This document shows, piece by piece, positions 1 through 16,273 of a stretch of 16,273 nucleotides of DNA. The DNA comes from a virus (lineage: Duplodnaviria > Heunggongvirae > Uroviricota > Caudoviricetes). Below the pieces are notes generated by a model. It was not told where the DNA came from, did not search any database, and was given only the letters and a program-made list of their open reading frames with translations. The stretch's first letter is position 1. Every line of letters begins with the position of its first letter. Made by a program: the position numbers and the translations under genes. The stretch covers positions 1 to 16,273 of IMG/VR virus record IMGVR_UViG_2802429239_000001, one strand, 5' to 3'.

Positions 1-792
1 ATGTCCTTAAATGGAGTCAGTGCTGCGATGCGTGAACGGGTATCGCAGCAGTTAAAGGAAATTGAACGGCGGTATGGTGTGAAAGTGCTGTACGCCTGCG
101 AATCAGGGAGTCGCGGCTGGGGTTTTGCTTCGCCAGACAGCGATTATGATGTGCGTTTTTTGTATGTTCATCCGCTGGAATGGTATCTGCGGGTGGAGTC
201 GCCGCGCGATGTTATCGAACTGCCCATCGACGACGAGTTGGATGTTTCAGGCTGGGAGTGGCGTAAGGCGCTGGGATTATTGAAAGGCGCGAACCCGACG
301 CTGATTGAATGGCTGGACTCACCGGTGGTCTATCAGCAAGACGAAGAAACGATAACGGCGCTAAAAGCGATGACGCCGAAGTGGTTTTCTCCGCTACGTG
401 CGCGCTGGCATTATTATTCGATGGCGCGAAAAAACTTTCGCGGTTATTTGCAGGGCGACGAAGTTCGGCTGAAAAAATACTTTTACGTACTGCGCCCGCT
501 ATTGGCTGTGCGCTGGGTCGAATCGGGTAAAGGTGTGCCGCCAATGCGCTTTGCCGAGCTACTGGCGGGAAGCGAACTTGATGCGCCGTTACGCGCAGAA
601 ATAGACGAATTGCTGGAACGTAAACAGCGCGCAGGAGAAGCGGAATATGGTCCGCGCCGTCCATTGCTACATGCGTTTATTCGTGCAGAACTGGTGCGTG
701 GAGAAATTCCACCGATTTTACCGGACAGCAGAGACGGCGATGTTCGGGAGCTAGATAATTTGCTGTATCAAACAGTATTGCGCCGGGCATAA
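1..792 (+). CDS. Pol-beta-superfamily nucleotidyltransferase, function unknown
   Basis: 263-aa ORF with ATG at 1. N-terminal motif GSRGWGFASPDSDYD fits the G[GS]-x9-13-DxD signature of Pol-beta-type NTases, followed by a helical C-terminal region. Stop codon sits in the loop of the hairpin at 781..801. Confidence 0.6.
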   Translation: MSLNGVSAAMRERVSQQLKEIERRYGVKVLYACESGSRGWGFASPDSDYDVRFLYVHPLEWYLRVESPRDVIELPIDDELDVSGWEWRKALGLLKGANPTLIEWLDSPVVYQQDEETITALKAMTPKWFSPLRARWHYYSMARKNFRGYLQGDEVRLKKYFYVLRPLLAVRWVESGKGVPPMRFAELLAGSELDAPLRAEIDELLERKQRAGEAEYGPRRPLLHAFIRAELVRGEIPPILPDSRDGDVRELDNLLYQTVLRRA

Positions 793-805: not shown

Positions 806-1261
806 TTATTGCTGGTATTGCCAACTGCTGACTAAAGCGTACAAGTGGTTTGGAGAATAGCGCCAGCTTTCCTTCAGTTGCAGAAATTCAGCACAAAATT
901 CACTGCAAAACAGGCGATCGCGCTGTTCTTTATTACCGGTAATAATTCCTAATGCTCCGCGCCAGTCATATTTCTTGCCATCATGTTTACGGAAAAAAGT
1001 TTCCACATCCTGAAGGCTGGCCTGGAGCGGCAGCATATCCCACTTATCCGCAGGTAACGGCATTATCTTTCCGCGTACACCGCGATCGCGCAGTGATGCA
1101 GAGTAACAAAGGTAACTCTTTTCACCATGCTTAACGGCTAATTCACAGTGGGAATAACTACCGCGTGTGATTTTACGGGTAAGCCAGTCAGCCAGTCGGG
1201 CAATACCAAGGTGTTCTGTTCGGCCCTTATAACAAGCGAGCCAGACAGTGGTTTTACTCAT
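806..1261 (-). CDS. Small protein with possible permuted papain-like (YiiX/YaeF-type) cysteine hydrolase fold; function uncertain
   Basis: 151-aa ORF whose start overlaps the stop of the upstream gene by 4 nt (translational coupling). A His-containing segment (SYSHCELAV) precedes a Cys motif (LFCSEFCAEF), the His-before-Cys order I recall for permuted papain-fold proteins. Family assignment is from memory only. Confidence 0.4.
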   Translation of the reverse strand: MSKTTVWLACYKGRTEHLGIARLADWLTRKITRGSYSHCELAVKHGEKSYLCYSASLRDRGVRGKIMPLPADKWDMLPLQASLQDVETFFRKHDGKKYDWRGALGIITGNKEQRDRLFCSEFCAEFLQLKESWRYSPNHLYALVSSWQYQQ

Positions 1262-1867: not shown

Positions 1868-3421
1868 TCACCATGATATTTTTACAAAGCCATCTGAGCC
1901 GCGTCCGCCGGAAAAAGATGCTGATGTTTGATTATTTGCTGCACTACCACCAGCACCACCGGCACCATAACCAACGGCATTACCTCCGTTAGAAAGGGCT
2001 AAACCAATCCCCCCTAGGCCATATAGTGAATTCATTCCATTCCCACCAGGAGCAGAGTGTTGGTCAACCATGGTATTCCCACTACCGTTTCCACCTGTTC
2101 CCCCGTAAGCTACGCTGTCAGCAAATGATGAGTTCCCGCCTTGCATGCCATCTGAGCCATGAACATTCCAAAGAATACCTCCAGTTGATCCCATCTTTGA
2201 TTCTAATTTTCCCCCTTGACCACCTACACCTCCCGCTCCGACAGTGACAGCGTAATTTGTTCCTGGAATGACTGTGACTATTGATAATTTTGTTTCTCCG
2301 CATTGACCGCCAAAACCCTGTGTACTATATGGAAAACCAGAGTTTCCTTTTGCGTATCCACCGCCACCGCCACCGCCACCGCCACCGAGCATTTCTATAA
2401 AAAGTAAGGACACCCCATCAGGAACAGTAAACGTTCCATTGGTGGTAAAGAACTGGATGTGAGAATTCGTTGACCTACTATATGCAGCACCAGCCTTATC
2501 ATACGCCGCTTTCACCGCACTCGGCGTAGCCGCCTCCGTCGTACTGTTGCTATCCGTCGCATTATTAAGCTTCACAATCCCTTTTTGCGACAGGGTGCCG
2601 TCTGGAACACCCGTAATCTGTCCCCATGGGTGAGTATGGTTTCCCGCAGCCTTACTATTCGCCAGGTCATACGCCGCCTTCACCGCGCTCGGTGTTGCCG
2701 CCTCTGTCGTGCTGGTGCTATCAATCGCGTTACTAAGCTTCACAATCCCTTTTTGCGTCAGCGTACCATCCGGAATATCAGTAATCTGACTCCAGGTATG
2801 ACGATGATTTCGTGCCTCAATCATCGCCGCTTTCACCGCTTTTGGCGTAGCCGCTTTGGTTTCGTCATCACTGTCAGTGGCATTACTTAACTGCGTAAAG
2901 CCTTTTTGCGATAACGTAGCATCAGGGTGATTAGTCGAACGTTCATGTTCATCCAGTTGCGAATCAACATAATCTCGTGTTGCCAGCACAATACTGGGGT
3001 CAACGGTGAGTGTTACCGCTGCCGTGTTGGAAACTTCCATAATGAGACGAATGCAAACTTGCTTACCGCTGCCGCCGGGTAATAGCGGTTTATACGACTC
3101 CGGGAATTTACCGATAGCAATGAGTTCACCGTCAGTATCAAAAACACCGACTTCACGTACATACCAGCCGCCGATATTTTCGGGCAGTACAAGTTCCGCA
3201 ATTAACCAGTTAGGATTATTGGGCGCAACTGTTAATGTATTTAAATCACCTCGCCAGACTTCATGACGTAATTTAGTTTGGCTGACGGTGGGTTCATAAT
3301 ATTGCCCTCCGCTGTCGCCAACAGCCATTTTTTGTAGATGAAGCTGTTTTTTATCCGCCAGAGCATTAGCAATTTTTGCCATCCCTCTGTCGGTGAGTAG
3401 AGTATAAAACTCATTATCCAT
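1868..3421 (-). CDS. Tail fiber protein (P2 gpH / Mu S-like N-terminus, tandem fiber repeats, Gly-rich C-terminal tip)
   Basis: 517 aa. N-terminal 150 aa follow the P2 H-type pattern (MAVGDSGG..., HEVWRGDLN..., IAELVLPENIGGWYVREVGVFDTDGELIA..., ESYKP..., ATRDYVD). Three degenerate ~55-aa repeats follow (TLSQKG[IF]VKL[SN]NA.DS...TEAATP.AVKAAYD). The C-terminal ~180 aa are extremely Gly-rich, including a 10-residue poly-Gly. Confidence 0.9.
   Translation of the reverse strand: MDNEFYTLLTDRGMAKIANALADKKQLHLQKMAVGDSGGQYYEPTVSQTKLRHEVWRGDLNTLTVAPNNPNWLIAELVLPENIGGWYVREVGVFDTDGELIAIGKFPESYKPLLPGGSGKQVCIRLIMEVSNTAAVTLTVDPSIVLATRDYVDSQLDEHERSTNHPDATLSQKGFTQLSNATDSDDETKAATPKAVKAAMIEARNHRHTWSQITDIPDGTLTQKGIVKLSNAIDSTSTTEAATPSAVKAAYDLANSKAAGNHTHPWGQITGVPDGTLSQKGIVKLNNATDSNSTTEAATPSAVKAAYDKAGAAYSRSTNSHIQFFTTNGTFTVPDGVSLLFIEMLGGGGGGGGGGYAKGNSGFPYSTQGFGGQCGETKLSIVTVIPGTNYAVTVGAGGVGGQGGKLESKMGSTGGILWNVHGSDGMQGGNSSFADSVAYGGTGGNGSGNTMVDQHSAPGGNGMNSLYGLGGIGLALSNGGNAVGYGAGGAGGSAANNQTSASFSGGRGSDGFVKISW
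2358..2387 (-). repeat. Perfect hexanucleotide tandem repeat (CCACCG)x5, encoding the poly-Gly run of the tail fiber
   Basis: Plus-strand CCACCG repeated 5 times without interruption; on the coding strand this reads GGTGGC/GGTGGC... giving GGGGGGGGGG. Confidence 0.85.
2464..2914 (-). repeat. Three degenerate tandem repeats (~170-180 bp each) inside the tail fiber gene
   Basis: Long near-identical DNA stretches recur, e.g. AAGCTTCACAATCCCTTTTTGCG and GCCGCCTTCACCGC.CTCGG.GT.GCCGCCTC.GTCGT; they correspond to the protein repeats. Boundaries are approximate. Confidence 0.7.
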
Positions 3422-3423
3422 AA

Positions 3424-4071
3424 TTACTCCGGGTAAATAGATGTAATTTCAAGGCTCCATTGCCCTGTTCCGTAATAGATTGATGTGTTTTGCTGTACTT
3501 CCCGTATCTGGAAAGGTAAAACCGTCGTCAGTTCACCACCATAAAGTGCACAGCCAATAACAGGAATAGCACTTTGGTTAATGATCCAGACAATTAATGC
3601 TTCCAGTTTTGAACGTGTGTTTTTATATTCATGAATGAGTTCTACCAGATTATTGAAAAGGTTTTCATCCATGCCTTTATCCACCAGCTCTATATCAACC
3701 TTAAAAAAATAAGCCTTCCCCCCATATTCAAACCATTCTGAAATAGTTCCTGGTAGCGAAAGTATTTCCAGCACCCGCCGTACCGCCCAAATCGTTCCTT
3801 TATATTTATGCAGCTCAATGGCTTGCTTAATTAACTCGCGCTTCTCCCGTTCATCAGTGGTAAATAACCAACCTTCCAGCCCCTGAACGTGAAATTGTTC
3901 TGCAAGGGCAGGTAATGCCGAAGCATCAACCAGGTCTACCAGATAAACCATCAACGCTGTCAGATCGAGTTGGGCAAAACGCTCGGCAGCGATATTTGCC
4001 AGAGTTGAAAAACGCTCATCGCTGGCAAGCGGCGGTGGCGGCAGCAATTTATCCATCGCTGACTCCGGCAA
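3424..4071 (-). CDS. Baseplate/tail protein, P2 gpI-like (Mu gp48-like)
   Basis: 215 aa. Motifs HKYKGTIWAVRRVLEILS and a C-terminal ...YPE parallel the P2 gpI pattern (HCHKGTIGAIRRVVEPLG ... YPG) as I recall it. Sits between the gpJ-like gene and the tail fiber, as in P2/Mu. Confidence 0.8.
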   Translation of the reverse strand: MPESAMDKLLPPPPLASDERFSTLANIAAERFAQLDLTALMVYLVDLVDASALPALAEQFHVQGLEGWLFTTDEREKRELIKQAIELHKYKGTIWAVRRVLEILSLPGTISEWFEYGGKAYFFKVDIELVDKGMDENLFNNLVELIHEYKNTRSKLEALIVWIINQSAIPVIGCALYGGELTTVLPFQIREVQQNTSIYYGTGQWSLEITSIYPE

Positions 4072-5164
4072 TCGTGACGTCTATCGCGGTGCATTCCGCC
4101 CACTCATGCGCCTGCAAAATACGTTTTGTAGGCATATTCAGCGCAACGTCATAGACACCATCGACTTGTAACACTTTGATTATCTGGTTTGGCACAATGT
4201 CCCGTCCCAGATGTTTCTGCCGCTGTTGCGTCCAGAGGCTAATCGCTTTACGCGCCGCAGCCAGCGTTGTCTCCTGATCGGCAGTGGTAAACAGTGTGAG
4301 CTGCGCACGGATTTCATACGGCACCCTAACGGCGCATTTCGCACTTACTTTGTCGGTCAGCGGACGTTTTTTCTCCTTGCTAACCTCCAGTTCAATTTGC
4401 GCGAGCAGTTCCACGCCCGGCAGACCATTCAGCGTTAGCGGGTAGATCTCCACGCAGCCTTCTGGCAATCCTTCGTCCGGCCCCAGTACCGCGACGTCAA
4501 TAATCGACTGGCTTACGGAAAGCGTATGAAAGCGGTAGGCACCATAGCTGCCCGCATTGCTGAAACTTTCCGGCGCCAGTTGGATCCGCTGGCGTAGTGC
4601 GTCATCACTCTCTTCACCGCAGCCGCCGGTTGAGGCCGTCAGGTTGGTCACGCTGATATCGTAATAACCAATCCTGTCAACAAGGGCGCTAATCTGTGCA
4701 GGCTGCCAGCCATTGCCCGCTTCGCCTGTTGCCAGACTGGTGGCGGGAACGGCGATATGCAAACTTCCCGCCGGAATCAGAACATCTTCATCGGTAGCAA
4801 ACATCACGCTGTCAGAGGCGCTGGCACGTGTTCCTTGTGGAATTAGAATGTTATTTCGATTCTTACTGGCTACCGAAAACAGCAACGTGGTTTTTGCCGG
4901 TTGTGCAGGTAAGCGGTGAACGCCCACCAGCTCACCTAAATAATCCAGCATTGGCGCGCGGGAATACGCGACCAGATTCTGTTTCGCCGCTTCCTGAATG
5001 GCGATGCGTACAAGGTTTTCACGATAGGCAAAAAGGTCAATCAGCAACCGCTCGGCCTGTGCCGGGTAGAGCTTTTTGCCGCTGGCATCTTCATACTGCG
5101 CAATCATCTCGCTGGTAATTTGCGCAGGATCGCGGTCAATAAAATCGGGTTCGGCTATCGCCAT
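4049..5164 (-). CDS. Baseplate assembly protein J (gpJ-like)
   Basis: 371 aa with gpJ-type segments (LRQRIQLAPESFSNAGSYGAYRFHTLSVSQ..., ...GRDIVPNQIIKVLQVDGVYDV...). Overlaps the gpW-like gene upstream and the gpI-like gene downstream. Confidence 0.85.
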   Translation of the reverse strand: MAIAEPDFIDRDPAQITSEMIAQYEDASGKKLYPAQAERLLIDLFAYRENLVRIAIQEAAKQNLVAYSRAPMLDYLGELVGVHRLPAQPAKTTLLFSVASKNRNNILIPQGTRASASDSVMFATDEDVLIPAGSLHIAVPATSLATGEAGNGWQPAQISALVDRIGYYDISVTNLTASTGGCGEESDDALRQRIQLAPESFSNAGSYGAYRFHTLSVSQSIIDVAVLGPDEGLPEGCVEIYPLTLNGLPGVELLAQIELEVSKEKKRPLTDKVSAKCAVRVPYEIRAQLTLFTTADQETTLAAARKAISLWTQQRQKHLGRDIVPNQIIKVLQVDGVYDVALNMPTKRILQAHEWAECTAIDVTIAGVSDG

Positions 5165-13387: not shown

Positions 13388-13568
13388 TTTCCTCTCCGTT
13401 ATTTTGTTCTTCCTGAGTGATGACAGGAGTCAGGTGATTGCGGGCAATCATGGTCATAACCCACTCGTTTTCTTCTGGCAGATCAATTTCACTGTTCGGC
13501 CACAATAAGATTTCTTGTCCGTCGGCAAGGGTGACGCCGCTTGCCGGGCCGTTGTAGATGTATTTCAT
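13371..13568 (-). CDS. Small conserved tail-operon protein, function unknown
   Basis: 65-aa ORF coupled by overlap to both neighbours, in the position of the small protein that precedes the sheath gene in Mu-like tail operons. Confidence 0.45.
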   Translation of the reverse strand: MKYIYNGPASGVTLADGQEILLWPNSEIDLPEENEWVMTMIARNHLTPVITQEEQNNGEEIVHGS

Positions 13569-14020
13569 TCAGTTTCCTCGTAATTAACTTCAGTAAGCAG
13601 GGTAAGGTCCGTGCTTTCCCGTTTTGCGATAAACAGCGATCTGGTCGCCATTTCCATGATGTAGCGGCAGAAACCACCGCTCTCGCCTGCATTGATTTCT
13701 GTTTCAAGCCAAAGAAGACGCTCGCAATCAGGAAGCTGGATCCCCCCCAATGCGCTGCGTATGCGATCCAGTGCGTTTAACGCGCCACAATTTTTGCCAA
13801 CAATAACGGTGGCAGTTAAACGGAGCGTTTGCTGTTGCACGAGGGCATCACTGCTTTCAGGCATGGCAAATAGAGAACCGCTATAATTAATAATCACTGT
13901 AACTTGCTGCGTCTGCGGAATATATTTATTGGCATCAACCGATGAAATAAATACGTCCATTTCGGGATTCTGTTCACGTAATCTGGTCACAACAGAATTA
14001 ATTACAGATAAAATTTCCAT
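13565..14020 (-). CDS. Putative tail completion/terminator-type protein, first gene of the tail operon (positional call)
   Basis: 151-aa ORF with an AAGGAA RBS about 9 nt upstream of the ATG; 4-nt overlap with the next gene. Contains a C7/G7 homopolymer at 13742..13748. Confidence 0.4.
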   Translation of the reverse strand: MEILSVINSVVTRLREQNPEMDVFISSVDANKYIPQTQQVTVIINYSGSLFAMPESSDALVQQQTLRLTATVIVGKNCGALNALDRIRSALGGIQLPDCERLLWLETEINAGESGGFCRYIMEMATRSLFIAKRESTDLTLLTEVNYEETE

Positions 14021-14126
14021 ATAGGGTGTTCCTTAATTACTGCTCACTTCGTTATCGTTGAAATGTATTCTGAAGCAGTGAAGGTGAAGAATCTTTTAAT
14101 GTGATTTAGAGAAAAAATTGAATGGC

Positions 14127-14162
14127 TATAAAAATCCCCACACTTACGTAAAGGTGGGGATG
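14127..14162 (-). terminator. Intrinsic-terminator-like hairpin after the lysis cassette
   Basis: On the minus-strand transcript, a few nt after the stop of the 104-aa gene: AUCCCCAC-(12-nt loop)-GUGGGGAU followed by UUUUUAUAG. Coordinates approximate to 1-2 nt. Confidence 0.5.
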
Positions 14163-14165
14163 TAT

Positions 14166-14480
14166 TTAATAGCTGCCACGTTGTAATAGCTCTATTTTGC
14201 TATATAAGGCATCCAGCTTTGCTTCTAATACTGCCTGGCCACGAAGATAATCTTCTCTGCGGACATAATGCAGCGGAAGCTCGGCACGAAATTCGAGAAA
14301 TTCTCTTTCCAGTTTCGACCAGCTTGTTTCTGATTCCCGGCGCGCGTTTTCCAGAGATTCAAAACGCTCATTAAGTCTTTTTTCAATTTGCGCTAACAGC
14401 AATTTTCCGGCAGCAAACATTAATCCAACGAAGGAAAGCATAAGGGAGATCACTTCCCAAAAATCGATACTGAGTTTCAT
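14166..14480 (-). CDS. Membrane-anchored coiled-coil protein, probable lysis accessory (i-spanin-like or releasin-like)
   Basis: 104 aa with one N-terminal transmembrane helix (VISLMLSFVGLMFAAGKLLLA) followed by a charged helical region; strong RBS (AGAGGGG); directly downstream of the transglycosylase gene. Confidence 0.5.
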   Translation of the reverse strand: MKLSIDFWEVISLMLSFVGLMFAAGKLLLAQIEKRLNERFESLENARRESETSWSKLEREFLEFRAELPLHYVRREDYLRGQAVLEAKLDALYSKIELLQRGSY

Positions 14481-14492
14481 CGGCCCCTCTGA

Positions 14493-15098
14493 TTAGTGAA
14501 GACAGCTTGCCTGCCCCCAGAGTAAGTAGCGGGCGGCATGTTGATAGAGGATCATCTTCGGATAGTGACGATTTTCTCGCCAGTTTGCGGCACTACGCCC
14601 GGCGTTGACGTGCTCAACATGACCAAACCAGATGGTGGCATCTAACCCTTTGGATGCGGCCAGTTTTTTATCCCGATTAACCCATCCCTGACCACCGTTA
14701 TAGGCGCTTAGGGTAAACGCCATACGCTGGCAGCCATTTTTCGCCGAGATGTTTTTCCACAAATGCTGGTCATATTGCACCAATGCGCGAATCGCCCAGG
14801 TTGGGTTATAGGGCTTGTTTTCACGTAGCTGTGGATACAACTGGCTTATCCATGTCGCTGTGGCAGGCATAAATTGCGCCATACCCTGTGCGCCGACGGG
14901 GGAACGCGCCATTGGCTGCCAGGCTGATTCCTGGTGCAACTGCCCGGCGAAGTCTGCCACCGGGGCGTTCAGTCCCCAGACTTCTCGTGCAGTTCGAATC
15001 AGTTCGTTTCGCCATGCCAGAGATGCTCGCGGCGGTTCAGATGCGTTAAGCGGGAAGAACGCGAACAGAGTAATTAGCGCGAGAAATTTTACCTGCAT
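14493..15098 (-). CDS. Soluble lytic transglycosylase (SLT domain) with signal peptide; probable endolysin
   Basis: SLT-type motifs ESAW, GAQGMAQFMP and SAYNGG. The track ORF extends to 15197, but the internal Met (MQVKFLALITLFAFFPLNA) starts a signal peptide and has an AGGA RBS, so the likely start is 15098. It lies 2 nt downstream of the holin-like gene stop. Confidence 0.8.
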   Translation of the reverse strand: MQVKFLALITLFAFFPLNASEPPRASLAWRNELIRTAREVWGLNAPVADFAGQLHQESAWQPMARSPVGAQGMAQFMPATATWISQLYPQLRENKPYNPTWAIRALVQYDQHLWKNISAKNGCQRMAFTLSAYNGGQGWVNRDKKLAASKGLDATIWFGHVEHVNAGRSAANWRENRHYPKMILYQHAARYLLWGQASCLH

Positions 15099-15100
15099 CA

Positions 15101-15388
15101 CTAAAGTCCTAACGCGACGGAAAGGCAGACGGCTGCAACGATGATAGCCCGACGAATCATTGCCGCCGCGCAGCATCGCGCCTCTTCCCAGGGGCAAAAT
15201 GAGTCAGGCCGCGCCCAGGGAAACAGACTGCGATCGAGCCAGTATCCCAGCACAGCGGCGAGCGAAACCAGACTTAGTTTATAAATGACAACCGGGATCT
15301 GTGCGGAAGATGTCCAGCCGATCGCGACAAACAGCGCGACGGAAGCGACCAGCCAGCCGGAAAGACGGGGAAAAGTGACTTTTTTCAT
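15101..15388 (-). CDS. Small multi-pass membrane protein, putative holin
   Basis: 95 aa with 2-3 predicted hydrophobic helices; strong RBS (AGGAGA 7 nt upstream); first gene of the lysis cassette directly upstream of the transglycosylase. Confidence 0.5.
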   Translation of the reverse strand: MKKVTFPRLSGWLVASVALFVAIGWTSSAQIPVVIYKLSLVSLAAVLGYWLDRSLFPWARPDSFCPWEEARCCAAAMIRRAIIVAAVCLSVALGL

Positions 15389-15684
15389 ACGATATCTCCT
15401 GATAAGTGAGCGTTTAGTGTTGCCAGATCCCTCCAGTGAAGAATGAAAAAAGCTTTAATAAATAACTTTAAAAAATAGATCCTCTATAAATGAACATGCT
15501 TGCTAATAAATCCACCCATTAATAAAAGAGCAAAAGGTGTCCTGGAGAATAAGCGCGTCATTATGCAGGGAAAAGAGGATGGTGAATCGTAGGAATAGCC
15601 CATAGTCATTTGATTTTTAAAGTTTGTTTAAGAAAGTCAGCGACTGTGAGGGAAACGATCTTTTTACACTACAGGTAAAAATAA

Positions 15685-15704
15685 TACTGTATGCACATAC
15701 AGTA
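15685..15704. promoter_or_regulatory. LexA operator (SOS box)
   Basis: TACTGTATGCACATACAGTA is a perfect palindrome with CTGT-N8-ACAG, differing from the 20-mer consensus TACTGTATATATATACAGTA only in the central positions. Confidence 0.7.
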
Positions 15705-15713
15705 TCGTGTAAA
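15686..15713 (-). promoter_or_regulatory. Candidate leftward sigma70 promoter overlapping the LexA box
   Basis: On the minus strand: TTTACA (-35), 16-nt spacer, TACAGT (-10, inside the LexA box). Would transcribe toward the lysis and tail genes. Confidence 0.4.
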
Positions 15714-15725
15714 ATGATACTCCAG

Positions 15726-15756
15726 TTGACAAGAAACATAACGCAAACAATATATT
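15726..15756 (+). promoter_or_regulatory. Candidate rightward sigma70 promoter for the Mor/C-like activator gene
   Basis: Consensus -35 TTGACA, then 18-19 nt spacer to ATATAT/TATATT; about 20 bp downstream of the LexA box and about 170 bp upstream of the activator ATG. Confidence 0.4.
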
Positions 15757-15925
15757 TATTTTGTGAATTTATGACGTTCATTGATATTAAAAATTTATAT
15801 TTTTGGTGATTGTTTATTTGTTTGTTGAATGTATTGAGTAGCAGTAATGACAACTGCTTAGCGTATATCCGTGGTTTTACACGCATCGGGTCTTATACAG
15901 GATGCAAGATATATGGAGATGAAAA

Positions 15926-16273
15926 ATGATACGAAAATCAAAAGAGATGGCCCGGACACCGGAGATCATTAACGACCTGGCGTTTCATGCATCGCAAGTT
16001 CTGATTGAGAGCATCAATCTCGACAGTTCATCGGCGGAAAATGTGGGCTTTGCCATTGCCGACCGAATGATGCGTAACTGGGGTGGGCAAAGCATTTATT
16101 TCCCGAAAGGGATCTCCGGACGGGCGTCGGAGCGTGACTACCAAATCTATAGCGAGTGCGATGGTCGCAACTACGCCGAATTAGCGAAGAAATATAATCT
16201 GACGTTGCAATGGATTTATAAGATAGTGAAACGCGTACATGCGGAAAAGCAACAGCGCCGTAGTAATTCGTAA
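15926..16273 (+). CDS. Mor/C-family transcriptional activator (phage Mu middle/late activator family)
   Basis: 115 aa; GGQSIYFPKG...RDYQIYSECDGRNYAELAKKYNLTLQWIYKIVKR aligns with the Mu Mor C-terminal region (GGGQVYIPRG...RDLRIWNDFNGRNVSELTTRYGVTFNTVYKAIRR, from memory). GGAG RBS 8 nt upstream. Confidence 0.8.
   Translation: MIRKSKEMARTPEIINDLAFHASQVLIESINLDSSSAENVGFAIADRMMRNWGGQSIYFPKGISGRASERDYQIYSECDGRNYAELAKKYNLTLQWIYKIVKRVHAEKQQRRSNS

What the first reader, a model, noticed from the sequence alone, without database searches (positions are those of the whole stretch)
14166..15388. Non-canonical lysis module: secreted lytic transglycosylase with a holin-like protein and a lone TM/coiled-coil protein
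The muralytic enzyme carries a cleavable-looking signal peptide, so it would be exported by Sec rather than released through holin lesions, which raises the question of what the 95-aa Cys-rich membrane protein does (pinholin, antiholin or unrelated). The 104-aa TM plus coiled-coil protein resembles an i-spanin, but no partner outer-membrane lipoprotein ORF is evident nearby; it could instead act as a releasin-type or unimolecular factor.
Basis: partly seen in the sequence, partly recalled or inferred. Interest (0 to 1): 0.45.

Follow-up and report, generated by a model that had tools for sequence, protein, structure and literature searches.

The report
Spanin-less tailocin lysis cassette
These three genes are the cell-bursting module of a headless phage-tail weapon island in E. 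coli: a reduced copy of the phage BcepMu lysis cassette that has lost its outer-membrane-breaking genes but kept a small, uncharacterised membrane protein that is not a spanin.

Summary
On the minus strand, 14166-15388 holds three real genes under strong purifying selection:
- a PF13272 holin (95 aa);
- an SLT lytic transglycosylase with a Sec-type signal peptide (201 aa; true ATG at 15098);
- a 104-aa protein with one transmembrane segment and a helical tail.

They form one transcription unit with a conserved promoter motif and a conserved terminator. It lies between a Mor activator and a complete contractile-tail operon with no head genes. This island sits beside lysC in about 3.6% of complete E. 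coli genomes.

The cassette is a reduced BcepMu-type lysis module (gp21, gp22, gp25). In 63 of 69 related loci, Rz/Rz1 spanin genes lie between the SLT gene and the gp25-like gene. Here, and in six enterobacterial headless relatives, only 12-27 bp remain.

The 104-aa protein is the BcepMu gp25 orthologue. It coexists with Rz/Rz1 in phages and is predicted N-out/C-in, so it is not an i-spanin. It occupies the position and has the topology of the Mu gp25 releasin, but no sequence homology was detectable.

The signal peptide on the SLT is ancestral to the whole family. Overall this is a new variant of a known kind, of moderate interest.

The parts
15926..16273 (+). Mor-family transcription activator, divergent from the lysis operon (context; presumed activator of the two late promoters)
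   Evidence: PF08765 at 129 bits; phrog_532 late transcriptional activator; the same gene lies next to lysC in E. coli A37 and in all places returned.
15436..15459 (-). Promoter-region motif ATTAAAGCTTTTTTCATTCTTCAC, about 50-70 nt upstream of the holin ATG
   Evidence: The pattern ATTAAAR-N(0-14)-TTCTTCAC occurs exactly twice in the window (0.01 expected), once upstream of the holin and once upstream of Gp37. The block TTATTTATTAAA is invariant in six taxa. Promoter function is inferred.
15101..15388 (-). Holin, 95 aa, PF13272 (Holin_2-3); orthologue of BcepMu gp21
   Evidence: Pfam 96.7 bits against a cutoff of 27; phrog_1528 holin E 1e-36; 66% identity to BcepMu gp21 over residues 6-64; both ends conserved, with a loop shorter than in phage homologues; dN/dS 0.05-0.08.
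14493..15098 (-). Lytic transglycosylase, 201 aa (SLT domain), orthologue of BcepMu gp22; catalytic Glu57; Cys123/Cys199 pair
   Evidence: PF01464 56.6 bits; 56% identity to BcepMu gp22; aligns to the Slt70 catalytic domain including QESAW; E57 conserved in 69/70, C123 in 63/70 and C199 in 61/70 homologues.
15042..15098 (-). Predicted Sec signal peptide of the SLT (residues 1-19, MQVKFLALITLFAFFPLNA, cleavage inferred before SEPPRA)
   Evidence: One Lys in the n-region, an 11-residue strongly hydrophobic core, Pro at -4 and Ala at -1 (read from the sequence). Across the family the h-regions are not conserved in sequence but each ends in an AXA-like site just before the conserved mature N-terminus. 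Composition differs from SAR domains: G/A/S/T fraction 0.31 against 0.59 for Mu gp22. Cleavage was not tested.
14166..14480 (-). 104-aa membrane-tethered helical protein; orthologue of BcepMu gp25 and B3 ORF28 (phrog_462); predicted N-out/C-in; not a spanin and not a lipoprotein
   Evidence: 46% identity to BcepMu gp25, E 2e-35; phrog_462 E 6e-34; 99/100 family members have more Lys/Arg after the TM segment than before it; 0/100 have a lipobox and the window protein has no Cys; AF2 model has helices 7-67 and 75-101; dN/dS 0.04-0.07, and the protein is identical to that of E. coli A37 despite dS 0.11.
14130..14161 (-). Intrinsic terminator closing the lysis operon (hairpin AUCCCCAC...GUGGGGAU followed by UUUUU)
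   Evidence: MFE -20.2 kcal/mol, z = -5.75, 0 of 200 shuffles fold as well. A hairpin plus T-run is kept through compensatory changes in 5 of 6 taxa. The consensus scan missed it, apparently because it models a simple stem with a loop of 3-8 nt, whereas this hairpin has a bulged stem.
14084..14100 (-). Second copy of the promoter motif (ATTAAAAGATTCTTCAC), upstream of Gp37, the first gene of the tail operon
   Evidence: 2 matches against 0.01 expected; ATTAAAAG is invariant in six taxa.
13565..14020 (-). Gp37-family protein, first gene of the tail operon (context: shows that the head genes between gp25 and gp37 of BcepMu are absent)
   Evidence: PF09646 114 bits. In BcepMu, gp26 to gp36 (terminase, portal, head genes) lie between gp25 and gp37.

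Best explanation
The region is the three-gene lysis operon of a headless, BcepMu-derived contractile-tail island (an R-type tailocin-like element) inserted beside lysC in E. coli.

Shown:
- The gene order is holin (BcepMu gp21 type, PF13272), lytic transglycosylase (gp22 type) and a gp25-type membrane protein.
- The operon has its own conserved promoter motif, which is shared with the tail operon, and its own conserved terminator.
- The Rz/Rz1 spanin pair and gp26, which flank gp25 in the parent phages and in carotovoricin-like loci, are cleanly absent.
- All three genes are under strong purifying selection.
- The 104-aa protein is not a spanin subunit.

Inferred mechanism:
1. The Mor-type activator switches on the lysis and tail operons.
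2. The transglycosylase is exported by Sec, its signal peptide is cut off, and a Cys123-Cys199 disulfide probably forms in the periplasm.
3. The enzyme stays harmless while the membrane is energised.
4. The holin accumulates in the inner membrane and, on triggering, collapses the proton-motive force. It need only act as a timer or depolariser, because the enzyme is already outside.
5. The gp25-like protein has a single N-terminal anchor and a roughly 75-residue helical cytoplasmic domain. It most likely acts at the inner membrane as an accessory lysis factor at the holin or endolysin-activation step. This would be analogous to, but not demonstrably homologous with, the Mu gp25 releasin.
6. With no spanin, the outer membrane is not actively fused. 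It fails mechanically once the murein is gone, releasing the tail particles.
For: Identity and synteny:
- BLASTP to BcepMu gp21, gp22 and gp25 gives E values of 9e-22, 5e-74 and 2e-35; the BcepMu gene map is.
- The E. coli island map runs from Mor to the tail-fibre genes, between yjbD-side genes and lysC, with no head, replication or transposase genes.
- 197 of 5426 complete E. coli genomes carry it, always on the chromosome.
- The exact SLT protein is found with the same context, pgi-lysC-Mor-holin-SLT-104aa-Gp37-sheath.

Spanin loss is lineage-specific:
- Of 69 loci with both SLT and gp25-like genes, 63 have 518-2606 bp between them. 58 of those have a lipobox ORF in the gap, and all keep gp26.
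- Six headless enterobacterial loci have 15-27 bp, no Rz and no gp26. The window itself has 12 bp.
- There is no plausible lipoprotein ORF anywhere in the window.

Functionality:
- dN/dS is 0.04-0.08.
- The terminator is conserved with compensatory changes.
- The shared promoter motif occurs twice against 0.01 expected.

Exported enzyme:
- Family-wide signal-peptide architecture ending in AXA-like sites.
- Hydrophobic composition unlike a SAR domain.
- Conserved Cys pair and catalytic Glu.

gp25-like protein:
- N-out/C-in by the positive-inside rule in 99/100 members.
- Kept in every headless derivative, including those that lost Rz/Rz1 and gp26.
- In phages B3 and BcepMu it is followed by gp26-like and TerS genes, exactly as Mu gp25 is.

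Published precedents:
- Mu gp25 is an N-out/C-in releasin encoded within five genes of the endolysin (PMC9239132).
- Accessory single-TM lysis factor Lcc6 in phage LambdaSo (10.1101/2024.01.23.576932).
- Tailocins and phages without spanins (PMC4684702; 91 of 677 phages in PMC6139136).
Against: - No experiment exists on this cassette or on any member of the gp25-like family.
- No dedicated signal-peptide or topology predictor was available. Cleavage is inferred from sequence features, and -3 is Leu, which is acceptable but not optimal.
- There is no detectable homology between the gp25-like family and DUF2730: BLASTP found nothing, hhalign gave probability below 1%, and only 3 of 100 members gave weak Pfam hits among coiled-coil noise.
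- A fully cleaved, soluble periplasmic enzyme has no obvious need for a 'release' factor.
- In some phages the gp25-gp26-TerS block is not next to a holin/SLT pair. L072 has no lysis genes within 6 kb upstream, and L081 has a signal-less amidase. The link of gp25 to lysis is therefore not universal.
- How a free periplasmic transglycosylase is kept inactive before holin triggering is unexplained.
Confidence: 0.7

Rival explanations
1. Releasin model. The SLT N-terminus is not cleaved and acts as a signal anchor that tethers an inactive enzyme. The 104-aa protein is a functional releasin that frees it, as Mu gp25 does for gp22, with the holin as timer.
For: Same gene position, size (104 aa against 99 aa) and N-out/C-in topology as Mu gp25 (PMC9239132). 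Retained in every headless derivative. Leu at -3 makes the cleavage site suboptimal.
Against: The hydrophobic core is short (11 residues before Pro16) and strongly hydrophobic, unlike SAR domains. AXA-like sites are conserved at the end of otherwise unconserved h-regions across the family, which is the signature of cleaved signal peptides. No homology to DUF2730. The Lys pair that makes Mu gp22 releasin-dependent has no counterpart here, where there is only one Lys.
Confidence: 0.15
2. The 104-aa protein has nothing to do with lysis. It serves tail production, regulation or another membrane-associated role, and merely travels with the cassette.
For: In several phages the gp25-gp26-TerS block is separated from holin/SLT genes or paired with unrelated endolysins. 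No family annotation exists in Pfam or NCBIfam. The cytoplasmic domain carries no enzymatic motif.
Against: It is co-transcribed with the holin and SLT and separated from the tail operon by a conserved terminator. Head and packaging genes were all lost but this gene was kept. Its positional analogue in Mu is a proven lysis factor (PMC9239132).
Confidence: 0.25
3. The 104-aa protein is an i-spanin or unimolecular spanin that handles the outer membrane by itself.
For: An N-terminal TM segment followed by long helices superficially resembles Rz.
Against: Orthologues sit next to genuine Rz/Rz1 pairs in 63 loci. The positive-inside rule puts the helical domain in the cytoplasm in 99/100 members. 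There is no lipobox, no Cys and no second TM segment. No o-spanin ORF exists in the window.
Confidence: 0.03
4. The cassette is a decaying remnant. Loss of Rz/Rz1 marks a defective prophage whose lysis genes no longer work.
For: Spanin genes and gp26 are missing. In some E. coli strains an ISEc53 element sits between mor and the holin gene.
Against: dN/dS is 0.04-0.08 over dS above 1. ORFs, ribosome-binding sites, promoter motif and terminator are intact across at least five genera. The tail operon is complete. Spanin-less phages and tailocins are known (PMC6139136, PMC4684702).
Confidence: 0.07

Closest known systems
Lysis cassette of Burkholderia phage BcepMu (gp21 holin, gp22 SLT, gp23/gp24 Rz/Rz1, gp25 inner-membrane protein, gp26)
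   Same: Holin, SLT and gp25 are orthologous (66%, 56% and 46% identity), lie in the same order and are tightly packed. The SLT also starts with a hydrophobic signal ending in an AXA-type site.
   Different: Rz/Rz1 and gp26 are absent, leaving a 12-bp spacer. The holin loop is 14-19 residues shorter and carries lineage-specific Cys residues. The cassette is followed by a terminator and the tail operon rather than by terminase and head genes.
Headless BcepMu-type loci of Pectobacterium, Samsonia and Lonsdalea (carotovoricin Er-like tailocin clusters)
   Same: They have also lost the head genes and keep holin-SLT-...-gp25-like in front of Gp37 and the sheath gene. Literature says carotovoricin shares ancestry with a Salmonella Typhi prophage (cited in PMC4684702, PMC11974492).
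   Different: They retain Rz/Rz1 (lipobox ORF ...LLVASCS...) and gp26. I did not align these loci to the deposited carotovoricin Er sequence, so the equation with carotovoricin is an inference.
Phage Mu gp25 releasin (DUF2730, PF10805)
   Same: About 100 aa, a single N-terminal TM segment, N-out/C-in, and a helical cytoplasmic domain with a net charge near zero or slightly negative. In the parent phages it is encoded downstream of the endolysin and spanins and upstream of gp26-like and TerS genes (PMC9239132).
   Different: No sequence or profile similarity. Mu has no holin and uses a Gly-rich SAR muramidase. Here there is a holin and an SLT with a signal-peptide-like N-terminus.
Sec-exported endolysins (Lys44 of Oenococcus phage fOg44; predicted for Burkholderia phage KS10 lysin)
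   Same: The muralytic enzyme carries a predicted cleavable signal peptide, so the holin is needed for timing or activation rather than export (KS10 discussion in PMC2628397).
   Different: fOg44 infects a Gram-positive host. For KS10, and here, the signal peptide is only predicted.
Spanin-less R-type tailocin clusters and phages (P. aeruginosa R pyocins and a few other pseudomonad tailocins; 91 of 677 phages of Gram-negative hosts)
   Same: A holin plus a murein hydrolase with no Rz/Rz1 (PMC4684702, PMC6139136).
   Different: Different holin and hydrolase families, P2-type rather than BcepMu-type tails, and no gp25-like gene reported.

Membership tests
Holin_2-3 (PF13272) / phrog_1528 | Profile HMM match above the curated cutoff | tested here: met
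   96.7 bits against a cutoff of 27; phrog_1528 E 1e-36.
Holin_2-3 (PF13272) / phrog_1528 | Small protein with 2-3 transmembrane segments encoded immediately upstream of the endolysin | tested here: met
   95 aa; hydrophobic segments at about 12-28, 31-51 and 81-95 (sequence); its stop codon lies 2 nt before the SLT ATG.
Holin_2-3 (PF13272) / phrog_1528 | Membrane permeabilisation that times lysis | not testable with these tools
   I found no experimental paper on this family.
Family 1 lytic transglycosylase (SLT, PF01464) | Profile match, catalytic Glu in the E-S motif, and the G-x-x-Q and A-Y-N-x-G motifs | tested here: met
   56.6 bits against 21.3. QESAW aligns with QESAW of Slt70. GMAQFMP at residue 72 and AYNGG at 132; Glu57 is kept in 69/70 homologues.
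Cleavable Sec (SPase I) signal peptide | Basic n-region, 7-15-residue hydrophobic core, helix breaker, and small residues at -1 and -3 | tested here: met
   MQVK / FLALITLFAFF / P / LNA|S, with Ala at -1 and Leu at -3 (tolerated). The same architecture recurs with AXA sites in divergent homologues. No SignalP-type predictor was available, and cleavage itself was not tested.
SAR (signal-anchor-release) endolysin | Weakly hydrophobic N-terminal TM segment rich in Gly/Ala/Ser/Thr and long enough to span the membrane | tested here: not met
   Only 16 uncharged residues, interrupted by Pro16. G/A/S/T fraction is 0.31 against 0.59 for Mu gp22; values of 0.50-0.62 for R21 and P1 Lyz come from sequences quoted from memory.
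Two-component spanin, i-spanin subunit (Rz-like) | Type II (N-in, C-out) topology with a periplasmic coiled-coil domain | tested here: not met
   The positive-inside rule gives N-out/C-in for the window protein and for 99/100 family members.
Two-component spanin, i-spanin subunit (Rz-like) | Partner o-spanin lipoprotein gene embedded in, overlapping or adjacent to it | tested here: not met
   No lipobox ORF in 13900-15500 on either strand, and none plausible in the whole window. In relatives the real Rz/Rz1 pair is a separate gene pair upstream of the gp25-like gene.
Unimolecular spanin | N-terminal lipoprotein signal plus a C-terminal TM segment | tested here: not met
   No Cys in the protein and no second hydrophobic segment.
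Releasin / DUF2730 (PF10805, Mu gp25) | Match to the DUF2730 profile or to Mu gp25 | tested here: not met
   No Pfam hit at E <= 10. 3/100 members have E >= 0.025 among coiled-coil noise. BLASTP found nothing. hhalign probability was 0.5-0.7%.
Releasin / DUF2730 (PF10805, Mu gp25) | About 100 aa, single N-terminal TM segment, N-out/C-in, and encoded within five genes downstream of the endolysin of a Mu-like element | tested here: met
   criteria as stated in PMC9239132.
Releasin / DUF2730 (PF10805, Mu gp25) | Required for release or activation of the endolysin | not testable with these tools
   Needs genetics.
BcepMu gp25 / B3 ORF28 family (phrog_462; no Pfam or NCBIfam model) | Sequence homology over the full length, including the invariant LPxxYVRREDYxRxQ...EAKLDA motif | tested here: met
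   E 2e-35 to BcepMu gp25; phrog_462 E 6e-34; motif seen in alignments A1 and A4; 994 cluster representatives at E <= 0.001.
R-type tailocin (headless contractile phage-tail element) | Complete sheath, tube, tape-measure, baseplate and fibre gene set plus a lysis cassette and regulator, with no head, packaging or replication genes | tested here: met
   E. coli A37 island annotation; window ORF map; head genes gp26-gp36 of BcepMu are missing.
R-type tailocin (headless contractile phage-tail element) | Production of bactericidal tail particles | not testable with these tools
   I found no paper on this E. coli island.

The most novel reading that the evidence does not exclude
The BcepMu gp25-like family has about 1000 cluster representatives, no Pfam or NCBIfam model, and is mis-annotated as 'lipoprotein'. 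It could be a second, sequence-unrelated class of releasin-type inner-membrane lysis factors. In that reading it is required even with signal-peptide endolysins, and together with a PF13272 holin and a secreted transglycosylase it forms a minimal three-gene, spanin-free system sufficient to release tailocins from E. coli.
Probability: 0.3. Interest if true: 0.55.

Novelty: new variant of a known kind. Interest (0 to 1): 0.35.

Why it matters
The island is a natural 'minimal' version of a widespread phage lysis cassette. Everything not needed to make and release tails has been removed, including the spanins, yet the small gp25-like membrane protein is kept under strong selection in the lysis operon.

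That makes E. coli carriers of this island a convenient system for three open questions:
- What do the proteins at the 'gp25 position' of Mu-like phages do? Only Mu gp25 itself has been studied.
- How is a Sec-exported endolysin held in check in a Gram-negative periplasm?
- Does tailocin release really need active outer-membrane disruption?

It also corrects an annotation: members of this family are labelled 'lipoprotein' in RefSeq and PHROGs without any lipobox.

Tried and rejected
- **Embedded or adjacent o-spanin:** scanned all frames with strict and relaxed lipobox patterns. Only antisense or AT-rich artefacts turned up.
- **Homology of the 104-aa family to Mu gp25/DUF2730:** BLASTP, two profile-profile comparisons and Pfam scans of 18 and 100 members were all negative. 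My DUF2730 alignment covered only Mu-type (type I) members, but the Pfam model covers the other types.
- **Structure route:** the AF2 model (pLDDT 79) is a helical hairpin. Foldseek against BFVD gave nothing (E 9.6), so I did not search the PDB.
- **Consensus terminator and promoter scan:** it missed the real terminator, and its counts were no higher than in the shuffled controls.
- **Rfam on 13900-16273:** no hit.
- **Literature:** I found no paper on this E. coli lysC-linked island. The ST131 'tailocin' paper (PMC9205054) and BceTMilo (PMC5411513) describe P2-type elements unrelated to this one.
- **The 151-aa ORF at 806-1261 as a hidden lysis gene:** no TM segment, no lipobox, and no Pfam or NCBIfam hit.
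- **BcepMu gp26 against Mu gp26:** only a weak similarity (E 0.066). I used it as a hint of synteny, not as proof.
Full report
**Observation.** The minus strand of 14166-15388 carries three tightly packed ORFs:
- a 95-aa membrane protein (15388-15101);
- a lytic transglycosylase;
- a 104-aa protein (14480-14166).

The mechanical ORF for the enzyme starts at a TTG at 15197. The sequence instead shows an ATG at 15098, preceded by AGGA and lying 2 nt after the holin stop. PGAP in E. coli and independent gene calls use that start, giving 201 aa.

Pfam assigns the first protein to Holin_2-3 (PF13272, 96.7 bits) and the second to SLT (PF01464, 56.6 bits). The third has no Pfam or NCBIfam family and matches only phrog_462. 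Nei-Gojobori dN/dS against five orthologous loci from other genera is 0.04-0.08 for all three, with dS above 1.

**Genomic context.** The window is a headless contractile-tail island. A divergent Mor-family activator (15926-16273) comes first, then the three genes. The tail genes follow in this order:
- Gp37 and a 65-aa protein;
- sheath and tube;
- chaperone and tape measure;
- baseplate;
- fibre.

DNA about 93% identical is present in 197 of 5426 complete E. coli genomes, always on the chromosome. In strain A37 the island lies between yjbD-side genes and lysC and contains no head, packaging, replication or transposase gene. The exact SLT protein of the window occurs in many assemblies in the same context, pgi-lysC-Mor-holin-SLT-104aa-Gp37-sheath. 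By gene content this is an R-type tailocin-like element. I found no paper describing it.

**What the cassette is.** Phage BcepMu has the order gp21 holin, gp22 SLT, gp23 Rz, gp24 Rz1 (embedded), gp25 'inner membrane protein', gp26, then terminase. The window proteins match as follows:

| Window protein | BcepMu protein | Identity |
|---|---|---|
| 95-aa holin | gp21 | 66% over the N-terminal 59 residues |
| SLT | gp22 | 56% |
| 104-aa protein | gp25 | 46%, E 2e-35 |

The 104-aa protein is therefore the gp25 orthologue and not the Rz equivalent.

I fetched 80 loci encoding gp25-like proteins from species-representative genomes and mapped BcepMu and window proteins onto them. Among 69 loci that have both the SLT and the gp25-like gene:
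- 63 have 518-2606 bp between the two genes. 58 of these contain an obvious lipobox ORF of the Rz1 type (for example ...LLVASCSSTTPP...), and all keep gp26.
- Of those 63, 45 are complete prophages, 14 are headless loci in Pectobacterium, Samsonia and Lonsdalea (carotovoricin-like), and 4 could not be classified.
- Six loci have 15-27 bp between the genes, no Rz/Rz1 and no gp26: E. coli A37, two Superficieibacter, Phytobacter, Dryocola and Lelliottia. All six are headless. The window has 12 bp.

Spanin loss is thus a derived feature of one enterobacterial tailocin lineage. Strict and relaxed lipobox scans of every frame of the whole window found nothing plausible.

**Operon structure.** Directly after the 104-aa stop codon there is a hairpin (AUCCCCAC...GUGGGGAU) followed by UUUUU. 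Its MFE is -20.2 kcal/mol with z = -5.75. The hairpin and T-run are kept through compensatory substitutions in five of six taxa.

The motif ATTAAA(A)G...TTCTTCAC occurs exactly twice in the window (0.01 expected). One copy is upstream of the holin gene and one is upstream of Gp37. Both lie in blocks that are invariant across six taxa. I infer two co-regulated late promoters, presumably Mor-dependent, and a self-contained three-gene lysis transcript.

**The enzyme.**
- The SLT aligns to the catalytic domain of E. coli Slt70, including QESAW.
- Glu57 is kept in 69 of 70 homologues, and Cys123 and Cys199 in 63 and 61. A conserved Cys pair fits a periplasmic, disulfide-bonded protein; this is an inference.
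- The N-terminus MQVKFLALITLFAFFPLNA|SEPPRA has one basic residue, an 11-residue strongly hydrophobic core, Pro at -4 and Ala at -1.
- Across the family the hydrophobic regions are not conserved in sequence, yet each ends in an AXA-like site immediately before the conserved mature N-terminus. BcepMu has ...APVAA|QVP and Pectobacterium has ...TLVCA|ETIP. That is the usual signature of cleaved Sec signal peptides.
- Its composition (G/A/S/T 0.31, L/I/V/F/M 0.56) differs from the Mu gp22 SAR domain (0.59 and 0.29).

Export by Sec is therefore ancestral to the BcepMu-type cassette and not special to this window. A signal peptide was already predicted for the related KS10 lysin (PMC2628397). No dedicated predictor was available, and cleavage is untested.

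**The 104-aa protein.**
- A profile search found 994 cluster representatives. The family is also present in Pseudomonas phage B3 and relatives, where it is followed by an ORF annotated as similar to Mu gp26 and by TerS.
- In 99 of 100 members, Lys/Arg are more frequent in the 15 residues after the single N-terminal hydrophobic segment than before it. None has a second hydrophobic segment. The predicted topology is therefore N-out/C-in, the opposite of an i-spanin.
- None of the 100 has a lipobox, and the window protein has no Cys. The 'lipoprotein' label in RefSeq and PHROGs is unfounded.
- AF2 predicts helices 7-67 and 75-101, with a break at the invariant LPxxYVRREDY motif.

Size, topology and position match the Mu gp25 releasin. 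That protein is a 99-aa N-out/C-in membrane-tethered cytoplasmic protein required for release of the Mu SAR endolysin, and DUF2730 genes map within five genes downstream of the endolysin (PMC9239132). No homology could be shown, however.

**Inference about function.** The gene survives under strong selection inside the lysis transcript of elements that have discarded heads, packaging genes, gp26 and even spanins. This argues for a role in lysis over a role in head assembly. I rate that at roughly 0.5-0.6.

Two facts argue for caution:
- In some phages the gp25-gp26-TerS block is not adjacent to holin/SLT genes, or it accompanies a signal-less amidase. Chamblee et al. report the same pattern for DUF2730.
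- A cleaved, soluble enzyme has no obvious need for release.

**The holin.** Both ends are conserved with phage homologues, including YWLDRSLFP.ARP and the invariant RR before the C-terminal hydrophobic segment. The loop is 14-19 residues shorter, and three of the four Cys residues are specific to this lineage. With the enzyme exported independently, the holin need only depolarise and time lysis. Whether it makes small or large holes cannot be decided here.

**Outer membrane.** No spanin, unimolecular spanin or small cationic candidate is encoded in the island. Spanin-less systems have precedent: pseudomonad R-tailocin clusters lacking rz/rz1 (PMC4684702), and 91 of 677 phages of Gram-negative hosts (PMC6139136). 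I infer passive outer-membrane failure after murein degradation.

**Verdict.**
- The module is a reduced, spanin-less variant of the known BcepMu-type cassette inside an undescribed E. coli tailocin-like island. It is of moderate interest, mainly as a clean genetic handle on the uncharacterised gp25-like family.

Noticed in passing
window 806-1261 (-): 151-aa ORF at the far end of the island, after the DUF4376 fibre-assembly gene. It matches phrog_1128 (E 1e-58, labelled 'enoyl-CoA hydratase/carnithine racemase-like') but has no Pfam or NCBIfam family, no TM segment and no lipobox. It contains SHCE...CSEFC motifs. Function unknown; PGAP annotates the counterpart in E. coli A37 as hypothetical.
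   Followed up: partly
window 1-792 (+): RlaP-family nucleotidyltransferase (PF10127, 324 bits) flanking the island on the side away from lysC. In E. coli A37 it follows a slipin-family gene. It may be cargo or a neighbouring defence-type gene.
   Followed up: no
L089 (E. coli IAI39) 2927-4684; corresponds to the window intergenic region 15389-15925: In IAI39, CE10 and several other E. coli strains, an ISL3-like ISEc53 transposase gene plus a ClbS/DfsB-family gene are inserted between the holin gene and mor. This could uncouple or alter regulation of the lysis operon.
   Followed up: partly
window 15389-15925: A 537-bp AT-rich (28-37% GC) intergenic region lies between the holin gene and mor. 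The 89-aa ORF at 15617-15886 has no family hits and is not annotated in E. coli, so it is probably spurious. There is no Rfam match. What controls mor in this headless element is unknown.
   Followed up: partly
window 14062-14079 and 15828-15845: An 18-nt direct repeat (AATGTATTCTGAAGCAGT / AATGTATTGAGTAGCAGT, 83% identical). One copy is 42-59 nt upstream of Gp37 and the other is 81-98 nt upstream of mor. It could be a shared operator or chance.
   Followed up: no
L031, L047, L054, L067, L083 (SLT genes of full BcepMu-like prophages in Serratia, Dickeya, Buttiauxella, Pandoraea and Salmonella diarizonae): These SLT homologues have a longer N-terminus with two hydrophobic segments separated by a basic loop (for example MNWPQITWIVAVTLGLGMTVTLHGKPRTGKYSFWWQLFGAGVTAWLLWCGGFFSQAQA|AQP) before the AXA-like site. 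This suggests a membrane-anchored pro-form in some lineages.
   Followed up: no
L081 4567-6345 and L072 3300-6345: The gp25-like gene is not always next to holin/SLT. In L081 (Rhodocyclaceae MAG) it follows a signal-less Amidase_2-like ORF and two other ORFs. In L072 (Rhodocyclus tenuis) no lysis gene lies within 6 kb upstream. In every complete prophage it is followed by gp26 and TerS.
   Followed up: partly
NC_005882 (BcepMu gp25), NC_006548 (B3 ORF28), phrog_462: Public annotations call this family 'lipoprotein'. None of 100 diverse members has a lipobox and most have no Cys, so the label appears to be an annotation error that has been propagated.
   Followed up: yes
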